The notes under the pieces: model-generated
Told to the model about the DNA's origin: nothing
The model's database searches: none
The model's input: the letters and a program-made list of their open reading frames with translations, nothing else
Made by a program: the position numbers and the translations under genes
Assembly (NCBI GenBank): GCA_964016885.1
Contig: OZ024742.1
Location: forward strand, 268,584,001-268,648,000
Direction: 5' to 3'
Length of the DNA stretch: 64,000 bases
From: Eledone cirrhosa
Lineage: Eukaryota
Shown: piece after piece, positions 57,207 to 64,000 of the stretch
How the letters are laid out: each line of letters begins with the position of its first letter
Numbering within the stretch: the stretch's first letter is position 1

Positions 57207-57826
57207 AGATGATGATAGGGGGGGGGACCGGACGGTTAAGCTCTTGCTGTTTCAAACAGCTCGTCTGGAACTAACTGTTGAAACCGTAAGAGCTCAGGAA
57301 TACTATACAATCCATTGTATGGAGTGTTCTGTTGAGTAATGGTCTAACTAGTTTCAAACTAGTACCTATTTATAAATCTTAAAATATTAAAATCAATAGA
57401 ATAATCAAACACCCCTAAAAAGGAAACTATTATTATCTATTTTGAGATATTTACAAAGCTGCCAAAATCTGTCGATATGATAAACACATTTTTTACAATT
57501 ATATTCATAATCCTATCTAAATGTATTTTATTTTGGCTACTATTTTTGAAAATTTCAAGGACATGTTTTCTTGCAGATACAACCAACCAAAACAAACACA
57601 TACATTAATAACAAACACACGCCTATATTACATATGTAGTTTCTCTCTATATTTGCTCACCACTCTGTCTATATCTCTCAACCTCAGTATATATATATAT
57701 ATATATATATATATATATATATATATATATATATATATATATATATATATATATATATATCCAGGTGAACCTTCAACCGTTAAGGTCTCATTCCTGGATA
57801 TGTCAATATTTATAAAACAAACTTTG

Positions 57827-57887
57827 TATTTTATCTGATGAGACCGTAGCAAAGTTTTGGAAACCTTGAAATATATATAATAGAATA
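57827..57887 (+). ncRNA. Hammerhead motif family A, second copy (weak stem II)
   Basis: tattttat/atagaata stem I, CTGATGA 57835-57841, GAAA 57868-57871, tatata-TA; 3' flank nearly identical to 28650-28695. Confidence 0.6.
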
Positions 57888-58044
57888 AATATGGTTTTAA
57901 AAATATAGTTTCCATTTATTAATATCATTGATATTATACTCCAGAAAATCTGTCGAGTGCTTCGAATGTGTTATAAATATATTTGTTGAATTACAAACAT
58001 ATTATATATCCCTTTGCTTATATATATATATATATATATATAAG

Positions 58045-58796
58045 AAAGTACGCCCAAAGAATCATTTGATAATATATATACTATATTTCCTCTCCCAATC
58101 AGCATACTTAACCACACAAAAAATCAATTATACTAGGCTATAAGATTAAAAGGCACCGATGAGGAAATAGTAGATAAATAAACGACAGCAATCTATTCGC
58201 GACCAGACGCTATAGAATATTTACCCAACATTTCAATAGCACGTGGAAATAGATTAAATATACCGTCAACCATACACAATTAGGTATGAAATTAAAGTTA
58301 GAAGAAAACATGCAAATACACATATTAGGAATACGTTTCTATACTTAGGGTTTCGTCGCTTTCGGGAATATCCTATTAAGGATTAAATCTCGAGCTTCGA
58401 ACTCATCAGGAAACAAACTCATTTGGACAAAGAATTTTCTTAAGTGATCCCCGCCAGAAACGAATTCAAAAGGGCTAAGTACTGTGACATGGCAGTGGTC
58501 AAGTCAAAAAGAATGTGATTGATTGCTTAAGCCGAGTGAAACGTAATCCTGGTATGTGTATATGCATTTTTTCTTCTAACTTTAATTTTATACCTAATTG
58601 TGTATGGTTGACGGTATATTTAATCGATTTCCACGTGCTATTGAAATGTTGGGTACATATTCTGTAGCGGTTGGTCGCGAATAGGTGCTTTTTAATTTTA
58701 TAGCCTGGTCTAATTGATTTTTTGTGTGGTTAATTATGCTGATTGGGAGAGGAAATGGTGTATATATATTATCAAATGATTCTATGGACATACTTT
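58045..58796. repeat. ~250-bp inverted repeat with hammerhead-containing spacer
   Basis: 58045-58324 is the reverse complement of 58553-58796; the left arm has a short insertion. Confidence 0.9.
58329..58420 (-). ncRNA. Type I hammerhead motif (family E), long stem II, imperfect stem III
   Basis: Minus strand gagtttgtttc-CTGATGA-[gttcg..atcct taat aggat..cgac]-GAAA-ccctaagta-TA-gaaacgtattc. Confidence 0.55.
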
Positions 58797-60000
58797 ATAA
58801 TATATTGCTCTGATTATTCAATTTATTAATTCATCATTGAGCTACATCGGGAATGGTTGCAAAAACATATATATCTGTGACTTTGTCCAGTTTGTGTATA
58901 TGTAAATATTTATATATATATATATATATATATATATATATATATATATATATATATATATATAAAATATAATTAGGATAATTTACTAAGATAAGACAGC
59001 AAACGAAAAGATAGTACGAAATGATTTTTTTAAGGGAAAACATTAATGATTTTAAAATAAATAAAACAGACGTAAGTCTCCAACGGTACTCTGGTCCATC
59101 CGGTGTCACAGCGTCTGACCATCAACCCTAAGCGCTGTCCGTGGAGTAAAAGAAGACACAAAATAATGACTACAGCAATTCGTCCATAACATGTACGCGT
59201 AGAATATTATGTGACGACTAGGAGAAGGTAATGTGATAATCCCGTGAGACTGAAAAAAAGAATGACGTAAACAAATGAAAATTGCAAGAAGAACAAAGAA
59301 AGACATTGTGTTAAAATATATAATCCACCTATACATCCGAATTTAATTTCTATGTCCCCGCGCATATACATACACATGCACCTATGTATATACACATATA
59401 CATACATATGTACATGTGTATATACATATTAACATAATTTTGGATGGCCGTCGACTCTTATGAGTTCTCCGCCCTTTGTCAGGTTTTGATTTTTGTCCTG
59501 CAGGGTGACCAACATGACCCTTCTCACCAAGTAAGCTTGAGGAGTTGCCGGTTTAGTCGCCGACGACTCGACCATGCGACAGGTTGTACTGGGTTATATG
59601 TTACCAGTAGCACTCAATAGTGTCCCGACATAATATAGATACGTCTATAGATAGATAGACGAGAGAAACTACACAGTCAGGACTTTCAAGAAAAATAGGT
59701 ATATGTTTGTCTATTGCAACCTCTTATTTTGTAATTCGTATATATATATATATACATTATATATATATATATATATATATATATAAATATATATATATAT
59801 ATAAAAGAAATATGATTTCTTTTCATGCATATAAATATATATATATATATATATATAAAAGAAATATGATTTCTTTTCATGCATAGGTTTATACAATATG
59901 TATAAATATTTCGTATCTCCAAAGAAATACGGTTTTAGGAAGGCGTAGTTATGCAAACACCGGGGGGCTAACGCCCTCTAGTGATGTCCAGCAGAAGGAA

Positions 60001-60060
60001 GGGGGACAACAGTATATGCATTTCAGGCCTAACTGGCCTTCGTCAGGACGGTCCATCCCA
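60001..60060 (-). ncRNA. Minimal type I hammerhead motif (family B, copy 1)
   Basis: accgtc-CTGACGA-aggcc agtta ggcct-GAAA-tgca-TA-tactgt; core and stem II perfect, two stem I mismatches. Confidence 0.75.
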
Positions 60061-60325
60061 CCGCTTGCGACTGCTGGGCTAGAAGACAGGCGAGAATATA
60101 TACTTTTCTCGTATGTGTAAATGAGGTGATTAATCTCATTTACATATGAAGCTGCATATGTTGGCTCAACGTATAATAAAAAAGAAATAGGATTTCGCTT
60201 CAAGCATAGCTTTATACAATATGTATAAATATTTCGTATCTCCAAAGAAATACGCTTTTAGGAAGCCGTAGCTATGCAAACACCGGGGTTTAACGCCACC
60301 TGGTGATGTCCACCAGAAGCAAGGT

Positions 60326-61514: not shown

Positions 61515-61834
61515 TGTGTGTGTGTGTGTGTATATAAACTACCAAGGCGTAACGCACGTAACGAGCGCGCATACACACACACACACACTCGCAAATATGT
61601 GTGTATATATATAAACATACACATATATATATACATATATACATACACACATATATATATATATATGTATATAGATATATGTATATATATATATATATAT
61701 ATATATATATATATATATATATATATAAATATATATATATATATATATATATATATATATATATATATATATATATATATATATATATATATATATATGT
61801 GTGTATATATATATGTATATATATATATATATAT
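61515..61834. repeat. (TG)/(CA)/(TA)n microsatellite field
   Basis: Directly visible. Confidence 0.95.
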
Positions 61835-61837
61835 ATA

Positions 61838-61949
61838 GGAACCAGTAAGACCCCGACGGCTGAGCTCAAGCTGTTTCGAAGGCTAATTCTGGACTAAATG
61901 AAAATTTATCCTGGTATTTAAATAGCTGAGCTTCTCAAGGGGTAATTCC
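61838..61949 (-). ncRNA. Hammerhead family C, second copy (U3-A8 core, stem mismatches)
   Basis: Same TTGAGAA core and GUC site as 63060-63171, but substitutions weaken stems II and III. Confidence 0.6.
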
Positions 61950-63059
61950 ATATATGGTCAAAGTGATTGTCAAAAGTTAGTAGTAATTCTGTGATTGCAA
62001 ATTAGTAGGGGAGATGGTGGCTAAACCTGCCAGTAGGAGAAAAAGGGGAGGGGGTGGAGTAGACCCAATCATGTAGTAGACCCAATCTTAGTGCCAGCTA
62101 CAGCTGGGCATGAGGTCAAAGAAGATACTGGGGAGGGGGAGGGGGAGGAAGTCGAAACGGTAGGTAGAACAATGAGGGGTAAAAATATATATATGAAAGA
62201 AAAAATACTGAGAGTGATGAATTGCGAATAAGTGTAAATAAAAAAGAGTATGAAAGCAAGTTCTACGACCTAAGTCTCTAGCTATTGTTAGGCTAGATAA
62301 ATAAATAAATAAATAAAGAAAGAAATAAAGAAAGAAATAATGAAATAACGAAATAAGTAAATAAACTAGGTGGGACGGAATAGGCAAGACCCTTTTAAGA
62401 GGTATAAGTACGTAAATCATACGGTTAGAGTTAGCATTAGTATATATATTTTTTCGGGACTCAGAATTATTATCTCGTACTAGTTTACTTTGCTGCACTG
62501 GCTGGTTGCTGGCCTTGTGCCTGGGATAGAAACCTTTATTATTTATTTCGTGGTAGTTTATTTAGTATTTTGGCCCCATTTGTTGACCCGTCATGTATGA
62601 TTTACGTACTTATACCTCTTAAAAGGGTCCTTGCCTATTCCGTCCCACCTAGTTTATTTACTTATTTCGTTATTTCTTTATTTCTTGCTTTATTTCTTTC
62701 TTTCTTTATTTATTTATTTATCTAGCCTAACAATAGCTAGAGACTTAGGTCGTAGAACTTGCTTTTATACTCTTTTTTCTTTACACTTATTCGCCTTTCA
62801 TCACTCTCAGTATTTTTTCTTTCATATATATATTTTTATCCCTCATTGTTCTACCTACCGTTTCTACTTCCTCCCCCTCCCCCTCCCCAGTATCTTCTTT
62901 GACCTCATGCCCAGCTGTAGCTGGCACTAAGAACGCATGATTGGGTCTACTCCACCCCCTCCCCTTTTTCTCCTACTGGCAGGTTTAGCCACCATCTCCC
63001 CTACTAATTTGCAATCACAGAATTACTACTAACTTTTGACAATCACTTTGACCATATAT

Positions 63060-63171
63060 GGAATTACCCCTTGAGAAGCTCGGCTATTTAAATACCAGGA
63101 TAAATTTTCATTTAGTCCAGAATTAGCCGTCGAAACGGCTTGAGCTCAGCCGTCGGGGTCTTACTGGTTCC
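63060..63171 (+). ncRNA. Type I hammerhead ribozyme with non-canonical U3-A8 core (family C)
   Basis: acccc/ggggt stem I plus ggaa/ttcc; TTGAGAA 63071-63077; stem II g-c and cggcta/tagccg; GAAA 63132-63135; stem III acggct/agccgt; GUC site at 63154. Confidence 0.75.
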
Positions 63172-63276
63172 TATTACCCACTCTACTACCCTAAGTATTG
63201 AGTACTTTGATTCGTTATGGTCCACCTGGTTCCTTACCACATTTCCTTCGTTATATATATATATATATATATACAT

Positions 63277-64000
63277 ATAAATGGAAAAGAATGAAATTAA
63301 ATTTCATTTCTCAAACTTATTACGGCTGATACTTAAATATAAGTATGTATACGTGCATACATATATGTATACAGACGTACAGTAGTATATATATATATAC
63401 ATGCACCCATATATACATGTACGTATGGCTTTACCGAACATTTATTATAATGTTCGGTTTGTATGTAAACAAACAGCCCGAATTAAGCCGTACAGTGTTC
63501 GGCAACCATCGTCGCCTTTTTGTTGAACACTGACAAAGGAACGATGAACTAGTTTCGAGCTCATTAGCTATCATCAGCATCGTATACCTTCCTGTCAGAT
63601 GATTGAACGTTTGAAAGTATATACTTTCCTTATGCATATTAATGGTTGAGCAGCCTAATTTGCATATCGAATGAGTTAGTCGGCCGGGTGTATCGAAAAT
63701 GATAAATGGAAAAGAATGAAATGAAATTTCATTTCTCACACTTAGTACGGCTGATACTTAAATGTATGTATGTATACGTATATACATATATGTATACAGA
63801 CGTACAGTAGTATGTATATATATACATACATGCACACGTATATACATGTACGTATAGGTTTACCGAACATTTATTATAATGTTCGGTTTGTTTGTAAACA
63901 AACAGCCCGAATTAAACCGTACAGTGTTCAGCAACCATGGTTGCCCTTTTGTTCAACACTGAGAAAGGAACGATGAAGTAGTTTCGAGCTTATTAGCTAT
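63277..64000. repeat. 425-bp-period tandem repeat with a hammerhead in each unit
   Basis: ataaatggaaaagaatgaaat at 63277 and 63702; the second unit runs off the window. Confidence 0.92.
63530..63598 (-). ncRNA. Minimal type I hammerhead ribozyme (family D)
   Basis: ctgaca gg aagg tat acgatg-CTGATGA-t agct aatg agct c-GAAA-ctag-TT-catcgt t cctt tgtcag; long stem I, palindromic loop III. Confidence 0.8.

What the first reader, a model, noticed from the sequence alone, without database searches (positions are those of the whole stretch)
57820..64000. Hotspot of five unrelated hammerhead-bearing non-coding repeat families in ~6 kb, each bounded by (TA)n
Seen: hammerhead motifs of different sequence at 57827 (A), 58329 (E), 60001/60326/60563 (B), 61838/63060 (C) and 63530 plus ~63960 (D). 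All lie in repeats with no recognisable RT or endonuclease ORF, separated by (TA)n tracts. Established: Penelope-like elements carry minimal type I hammerheads in their pseudo-LTRs, and tandem hammerhead repeats (retrozymes) yield small circular RNAs. Inference: a community of non-autonomous, (TA)n-targeting ribozyme retroelements mobilised by PLEs such as those decayed at 9.4 and 21.9 kb.
Basis: partly seen in the sequence, partly recalled or inferred. Interest (0 to 1): 0.8.

Follow-up and report, generated by a model that had tools for sequence, protein, structure and literature searches.

The report
Penelope ends and hammerhead retrozymes clustered
Six hammerhead-ribozyme repeats sit side by side in 6 kb of TA microsatellite: two are cut-short ends of protein-coding Penelope-type (Hydra) retrotransposons, three are short non-coding units that likely borrow the same enzyme to spread, one is an unassigned remnant, and similar clusters recur in a genome estimated to hold about 300,000 hammerheads.

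Summary
The motifs are real, and a sixth family (F, 60694-60805) was missed. C is the 5'-truncated end of an intact 3,531-bp Hydra-clade Penelope-like element with a 717-aa ORF and a U3-A8 hammerhead. A is the last 262 nt of another Hydra family. B (323 nt), D (about 429) and E (683) are non-coding units that wrap onto themselves; none of 47, 55 and 41 loci joins them to an ORF end. All five families end at (TA)n at two fixed points 47-113 nt apart, and the two arms of an insertion usually use opposite points. That is the Penelope 'tail' signature, and it ties B, D and E to Penelope enzymes. The likely driver is Hydra, not the decayed elements at 9 and 22 kb. The site is dense but not unique: 3 of 70 sampled 10-kb stretches hold 5-6 hammerhead families in 6.2 kb. 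The sample gives about 3x10^5 hammerheads genome-wide. No RNA data; cleavage and circles are untested. New members of known kinds.

The parts
57688..57760 (.). (TA)n tract on the 5' side of A
57761..58019 (+). Family A: terminal 262 nt of a Hydra-clade PLE family, starting at the family's fixed 5' stop. Hammerhead 57827-57887, predicted cut after 57879; core intact, stem II weakened in this copy
58020..58042 (.). (TA)n tract shared by the 3' ends of A and E
58043..58540 (-). Family E main arm (unit positions 179 to 683), hammerhead at about 58335-58412 with a mismatched stem III; non-coding 683-nt unit
58538..58915 (+). Family E inverted arm (unit 379 to 113, wrapping round the unit), ending in the (TA)n at 58897-58964; right end approximate
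59858..60414 (-). Family B main arm, about 1.7 units of 323 nt, two hammerheads (60001, 60326), both damaged; 3' end at unit site 46 in the (TA)n at 59739-59857
60415..60682 (+). Family B inverted arm, hammerhead at 60563 with a G5A core change, cut off by family F
60694..60805 (+).
61838..62425 (-). Family C inverted arm, ending at the first end site (unit 235) in the (TA)n at 61604-61837
62425..63251 (+). Family C main arm: last 830 nt of the 3' UTR of a 3,531-bp autonomous Hydra PLE. Intact U3-A8 hammerhead 63063-63162 with a long stem III; ends at the second end site (unit 312)
63252..63277 (.). (TA)n tract shared by the 3' ends of C and D
63277..64000 (-). Family D, 2.1 units of about 429 nt (continues 186 nt past the window); hammerhead 63541-63583 intact, second at about 63960 with one stem III change

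Best explanation
The region is a pile-up of six separate insertions in TA microsatellite: A and C are truncated 3' ends of protein-coding Hydra-clade Penelope-like elements, F is an unassigned remnant, and B, D and E are non-coding hammerhead units (retrozymes) that are likely copied in trans by a Hydra reverse transcriptase-endonuclease. Shown: unit lengths, wrap-around repeats, lack of an ORF in B, D and E, ORF linkage of A and C, two fixed end points per family next to (TA)n, their reciprocal use by the two arms, and read-through of the hammerhead cut site. Inferred: the endonuclease nicks both strands of the self-complementary (TA)n. Each nick primes reverse transcription at one of two AT-rich points of the RNA, 20-420 nt downstream of the hammerhead cut site. 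Synthesis runs across the ribozyme junction and round the unit, on an RNA that is probably a circle made by self-cleavage of tandem transcripts and ligation. Each insertion leaves TA on both sides, so TA-rich places collect more insertions. Most window copies are now decaying.
For: C: intact 717-aa ORF with DKT, CxCX5C, CxxC and CxH motifs in a 4.6-copy head-to-tail array of a 3,531-bp unit; these motifs define Hydra in PMC8557442 section 11. A: in 8 of 30 loci chosen by upstream sequence, the C-terminal part of a Hydra endonuclease lies about 1.0-1.3 kb upstream on the same strand (L313, L319, L327, L330, L334-337); diverged relatives L165 and L204 show the same. B, D, E: arms longer than one unit in 14, 24 and 16 of 30 best hits and in 4 of 10 B and 7 of 10 D position-picked loci. 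End pairs: A 181/262, B 322/46, C 235/312, D 377/1-3, E 683/113. The inverted arm ends at the other site in 10 of 11 D, 15 of 20 B, 11 of 15 A and 3 of 3 E insertions (counted by hand); C uses both orders. A tail at either end is described as PLE-specific. Diverged B and E subfamilies (67-79% identical) still wrap at unit length and show compensatory stem I changes. Circular folds of the majority units beat shuffles at z -7.0, -8.9 and -6.4. TA tract number tracks hammerhead family number, rho 0.58, n=70.
Against: No autonomous element sharing sequence with B, D or E was found in 1.71 Mb of loci, so the partner is inferred from insertion anatomy only. Naiad elements also target (TA)n and carry tails. 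The two repeats within one insertion are hardly more alike than copies from different insertions: identity within/between is 0.956/0.953 for B, 0.930/0.930 for D and 0.953/0.943 for E. Shared variants exceed expectation for B (9 vs 1.3) and E (45 vs 7.9) but barely for D (28 vs 22), so single-template rolling copying is not shown. Read-through of the cut site fits an uncleaved linear multimer as well as a circle. Minimal PLE hammerheads cleave poorly in vitro (PMC4209133), and 8 of 9 Xenopus retrozymes tested did not cleave. D's fold score is helped by a TA-rich palindromic stretch.
Confidence: 0.7

Rival explanations
1. B, D and E are mobilised by another (TA)n-targeting Penelope-like clade (Naiad, or the Neptune/Poseidon-like lineages seen decayed in the window), not by Hydra.
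For: No sequence link to Hydra. Naiads insert in (TA)n in cephalopods. An open 455-aa RT plus GIY-YIG frame of another clade exists in L152. The decayed element at 9.2-10.6 kb is TA-flanked.
Against: Hydra has young intact copies with the same two-site anatomy, and Hydra-like ORF pieces occur in 12 of 70 sampled stretches. PMC8557442 calls cephalopod Naiads long inactive and lacking canonical hammerheads. The insertion ends of the other clades were not mapped here.
Confidence: 0.14
2. All five families are simply pseudo-LTRs or truncated ends of autonomous elements whose ORF-bearing copies were not sampled.
For: True for C and A. A looked non-autonomous among its 30 best hits (29 of 30 stop at a fixed 5' end) until position-picked copies revealed the parent, so sampling can mislead.
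Against: B, D and E continue upstream into their own 3' ends at 323, 429 and 683 nt, leaving no room for an ORF. They form arrays of up to 4.6 units. Their diverged subfamilies do the same. ORF-end linkage is 0 of 47, 0 of 55 and 0 of 41; the one flagged E locus abuts only a mid-RT fragment.
Confidence: 0.08
3. B, D and E are satellite-like DNAs spread at the DNA level (unequal crossover, extrachromosomal circles), and the hammerhead is a passenger.
For: Near-identical tandem arrays exist (E 3.6 units at 99%, D 4.6 units) and could have grown after insertion.
Against: Most copies are dispersed, 0.6-2 units long, with a fixed 3' end at (TA)n, a variable 5' end and an inverted arm ending at the second site, as in the autonomous C. 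Compensatory ribozyme changes argue for selection on the RNA.
Confidence: 0.05

Closest known systems
Hydra clade of C-terminal EN+ Penelope-like elements (Craig et al. 2021, PMC8557442; includes Hydra-1_Obim from Octopus bimaculoides)
   Same: DKT, RWK-like and CxCX5C motifs, CxxC and CxH round the endonuclease end, 3' hammerhead, (TA)n insertion, tandem and inverted structure with a tail (families C and A).
   Different: C is 3.5 kb with a 1.3-kb 3' UTR (the paper says generally under 3 kb). Its hammerhead is U3-A8 with a long stem III rather than canonical. The paper found few families outside cnidarians; here Hydra-like ORF pieces lie in 12 of 70 sampled stretches.
Animal non-LTR retrozymes (Cervera and de la Pena 2020, PMC7229834; Li et al. 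bioRxiv 10.64898/2026.07.22.740005)
   Same: Short non-coding low-GC units with a type I hammerhead, in tandem and as dispersed monomers, predicted to be highly self-paired, proposed to depend on PLEs (B, D, E).
   Different: Here the hammerheads are the minimal palindromic-stem-III type, most copies are 0.6-2 units, all target (TA)n, and they carry the PLE inverted-arm and tail anatomy, which I did not see described for retrozymes in the parts read. Expression and circles are unshown. The preprint links retrozymes to PLEs by co-occurrence and pLTR similarity in vertebrates; here the link is by insertion ends, with no parent found.
Minimal PLE hammerheads, including the U3-A8 core of Schistosoma Cercyon elements (Cervera and de la Pena 2014, PMC4209133)
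   Same: Palindromic stem III, U3-A8 covariation, solo and opposite-strand pairs 100-700 bp apart, and the proposal of circular templates for more-than-unit copying.
   Different: Scale: about 2,000-9,000 minimal motifs in the genomes named there and 126,247 type I motifs in axolotl (PMC7229834), against 61,480 exact-pattern hits for four families and an estimated 3x10^5 here.

Membership tests
Hydra-clade PLE (family C) | Single ORF, RT followed by C-terminal GIY-YIG endonuclease | tested here: met
   717-aa ORF with an RT YRDD motif and a C-terminal VIYQC...AYIG motif read by eye; Pfam gave no hit
Hydra-clade PLE (family C) | DKG changed to DKT; RWK motif | tested here: met
   HSDKT and LRWRT in the ORF; definition; close likeness by eye to Hydra-1_Obim in the supplement
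Hydra-clade PLE (family C) | CxCX5C linker; CxxC and CxH flanking the conserved E and N | tested here: met
   CNCPDRSIC, CNLC, CKH; the same pattern in the L165 ORF
Hydra-clade PLE (family C) | Hammerhead at the 3' end; insertion into (TA)n | tested here: met
   core intact in 28 of 30 (U3-A8 variant); TA-rich after the end in 28 of 30
Hydra-clade PLE (family C) | Generally shorter than 3 kb (typical, not strict) | tested here: not met
   unit 3,531 bp
Hydra-clade PLE (family C) | RT phylogeny groups with Hydra | not tested
   no tree with published sequences was built
Hydra-clade PLE (family A) | Continuous with a Hydra ORF upstream | tested here: met
   8 of 30 loci chosen by upstream sequence show the endonuclease end 1.0-1.3 kb upstream; their A part is 88-96% identical to the A majority; no intact parent ORF was fetched
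Non-LTR retrozyme (B, D, E) | Short head-to-tail unit (150-450 bp; 51-972 bp in the preprint) with a type I hammerhead in each unit | tested here: met
   323, 429 and 683 nt; wrap-around and arrays; E exceeds the narrower range
Non-LTR retrozyme (B, D, E) | No protein coding; GC below 50% | tested here: met
   no PLE protein match or long ORF; GC 0.44, 0.36, 0.35
Non-LTR retrozyme (B, D, E) | Highly self-paired predicted circle | tested here: met
   64-67% paired, z -7.0, -8.9, -6.4 against 40, 40 and 20 shuffles
Non-LTR retrozyme (B, D, E) | Canonical hammerhead with loop 1-loop 2 tertiary contact | not tested
   the motifs look like the minimal PLE type; tertiary contacts were not examined
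Non-LTR retrozyme (B, D, E) | Self-cleavage and unit-length circular RNA in vivo | not testable with these tools
   needs RNA or bench data

The most novel reading that the evidence does not exclude
This genome holds one of the largest hammerhead populations reported (about 3x10^5, roughly 100 per Mb). Its long-lived non-coding circular RNAs are inserted by a Hydra protein through a fixed two-site twin-priming reaction on palindromic (TA)n. That would explain the Penelope 'tail' as the stretch of RNA between two priming sites, show that retrozymes are true PLE satellites, and give a ready natural pair (intact C protein plus a 323- or 429-nt cargo) for an in vitro PLE transposition system.
Probability: 0.4. 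Interest if true: 0.65.

Novelty: new member of a known kind. Interest (0 to 1): 0.42.

Why it matters
How Penelope-like elements make their inverted repeats, tails and microsatellite bias is called an open task in PMC8557442, and the dependence of animal retrozymes on PLEs rests on co-occurrence and similarity. Here coding and non-coding units of unrelated sequence share one precise end anatomy, which is direct genomic support for that dependence and makes it testable with natural sequences. The locus itself is mostly decaying copies; the value lies in the genome-wide system it samples.

Tried and rejected
Rfam at gathering score: no match in the window. Pfam: no family for the two Hydra ORFs. 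Sequencing runs for D: no RNA holder listed; no reads were laid. Earlier findings of this scan: none. A as a self-standing SINE: suggested by the fixed 5' end in the 30 best hits, dropped after position-picked copies and one search showed the parent; a self-copying young subfamily is not excluded. A's 5' end as a poly(A) cleavage product: the pattern with an upstream AATAAA gave 6 hits, which by eye are inverted-arm junctions, so rejected. Pile-up of 5' ends at the ribozyme cut site: not seen, with 0 of 78 B, 2 of 67 D, 1 of 32 E and 0 of 183 C arms within 3 nt (eleven duplicate or window-overlapping loci left out, among them the window's own E inverted arm, which does start at the cut site). 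U3-A8 as a new core: already in PMC4209133. A 206-nt tandem in an A sister family proved to be two insertions split by TA. A hotspot test using only A-E (at most 2 families in 70 stretches) was rejected as circular and replaced by the all-family test. Searches ended in script errors; 56 printed the ORFs first. Literature searches showed no paper on cephalopod retrozymes or hammerhead counts; subscription papers and preprint supplements were not visible.
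Full report
Setting. The window is G000:C3:268584001-268648000 of a 3.0-Gb genome. The host was not identified; a cephalopod is my inference from recalled repeat types and was not tested.

Observation. All listed hammerheads are present. Rfam misses them. Self-comparison shows E and C as inverted pairs, B as 1.7 tandem units plus an inverted arm, and D as 2.1 tandem units running past the window end. A sixth, degraded family F sits at 60694-60805. Only C2 and D1 are fully intact among the 10 window copies.

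Families in the genome. Each family gave 2,000-3,500 first-look candidates; 30 loci were taken for each, and these best hits are biased to young copies. Exact patterns count 46,605 hammerheads for the A superfamily, 11,269 for D, 2,887 for C and 719 for one B subfamily, with 0 in each reversed control. E was not counted by pattern. Cores are intact in 22-28 of 30 copies per family.

C is autonomous. 28 of 30 copies continue upstream through a 1.3-kb UTR into a GIY-YIG domain. A natural array holds 4.6 near-identical copies of a 3,531-bp unit with an open 717-aa frame, starting 94 nt after the element's 3' end point. The protein has the Hydra motifs given in PMC8557442 section 11 and resembles Hydra-1_Obim of that paper's supplement by eye. 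Its core is U3-A8, known from Schistosoma PLEs (PMC4209133).

A is a Hydra end. 29 of its 30 best hits stop at one 5' point with no shared upstream sequence. But 2 of 11 position-picked copies extend directly, and a third carries the upstream sequence inverted. A search with that upstream sequence gave 30 loci, 8 with a Hydra endonuclease end 1.0-1.3 kb upstream on the same strand. Diverged relatives L165 and L204 agree. The fixed 5' point probably marks a transcription start: a sister subfamily has a TATA box about 31 nt upstream, an initiator-like word and a splice-donor-like word before the ribozyme (read by eye; inferred).

B, D and E are non-coding units. Upstream they run into their own 3' ends at 323, 429 and 683 nt. 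The 30 E loci include three from one array and four from one segmental duplication. Ten position-picked loci each for B and D behave alike. In 1.71 Mb of loci, none of 47 B, 55 D and 41 E loci joins an ORF end; one E locus abuts a mid-RT fragment. For comparison, 22 of 113 C and 11 of 110 A loci are joined to ORF sequence, both sets enriched by targeted fetching. Subfamilies 67-79% identical still wrap at unit length and keep the ribozyme through paired changes. Circular folds are far more stable than shuffles.

Shared end anatomy. Every family ends at two AT-rich points 47-113 nt apart, lying 20-420 nt downstream of the predicted cut site. The inverted arm ends at the other point in 10 of 11 D, 15 of 20 B, 11 of 15 A and 3 of 3 E insertions (hand count). 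C does so in both orders: window versus array. This is the tail 'at either end' that PMC8557442 describes as peculiar to PLEs. In B, D, E and full-length C the tail is simply the next stretch of the unit. I infer two priming events on the two strands of the self-complementary (TA)n. 5' ends do not gather at the cut site, so the template is circular or uncleaved. The within-insertion variant test is mixed, so the circle is not shown.

Is it a hotspot? In 70 stretches of 10 kb taken at round coordinates, a descriptor scan found 72 hammerheads against 3 in reversed sequence. That gives about 3x10^5 per genome, a rough figure because motifs cluster; the scan caught only 4 of the 10 window copies. 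The most families within 6.2 kb were 0 in 32 stretches, 1 in 17, 2 in 11, 3 in 6, 4 in 1, 5 in 2 and 6 in 1; the window region scores 6. The library held 26 families seen in two or more loci and favours A-E. Family number tracks TA tract number (rho 0.58). The site is therefore in the top few per cent and not unique.

Mobiliser. The elements at 9.2-10.6 and 21.1-23.0 kb are decayed PLEs with other motifs; Hydra proteins do not hit them. Hydra is young, intact and common (12 of 70 stretches), so it is the likeliest partner, but no sequence link to B, D or E was found.

Literature seen. PMC8557442: passages, sections 11 and 15, supplement search rows. bioRxiv 10.64898/2026.07.22.740005: parts 1-3 of 5, supplements not visible. 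PMC4209133: parts 1-2 of 4. PMC7229834: parts 2-3 of 6 and passages. PMC13282606, an Octopus vulgaris repeat annotation: passages only, with no occurrence of 'hammerhead' or 'ribozyme'. Six searches showed no report of cephalopod retrozymes.

Verdict. Real. Two Hydra ends, three retrozyme-like units and one remnant; new members of known kinds. The moderate interest comes from the two-site end anatomy shared by coding and non-coding units and from the size of the hammerhead population.

Noticed in passing
window 14600-14798: A second, very short family C insertion in hairpin form (ends 312 and 235).
   Followed up: yes
window 28566-28696: Hammerhead of the A superfamily (L165-type Hydra end), intact core.
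   Followed up: partly
window 9200-10650 and 21130-23050: Decayed non-Hydra Penelope-like elements; the second has an inverted piece and a hammerhead-like motif near 21190 on the minus strand.
   Followed up: partly
family C, all loci: 77 of 133 untargeted C arms have their 5' end 17-55 nt upstream of the cut site, inside the ribozyme: a strong stop for reverse transcription.
   Followed up: partly
units B and D (window about 60470-60520 and 63620-63670): Both otherwise unrelated units carry an octamer motif 88-99 nt upstream of the core (34 of 40 D and 23 of 30 B motifs; background 0.015 per 220 nt), then a TATA-like word about 42 nt later. It is kept in diverged B copies. Possibly a promoter; an snRNA-type promoter in newt satellite 2 is recalled and was not confirmed.
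   Followed up: partly
window 62494-62542: The C 3' UTR holds a 49-nt stretch 78% like the end of a dispersed repeat family found seven times elsewhere in the window (D20).
   Followed up: no
window 33000-55000: Several copies of a long repeat with open frames up to 389 aa, probably LINE-like; not examined.
   Followed up: no
window 58965-59365 and 57210-57690: No match in the fetched loci; unassigned.
   Followed up: partly
L152:1338-2702 (-): Open 455-aa frame with RVT_1 and GIY-YIG matches, a non-Hydra PLE.
   Followed up: partly
L184, L167, L185, L089: Other dense clusters of hammerhead families; at least 26 recurring families in 1.49 Mb of loci, four with U3-A8 cores.
   Followed up: partly
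L155:711-1877 (-): Open frame that by eye resembles a class C GPCR transmembrane exon; label recalled, not tested.
   Followed up: no
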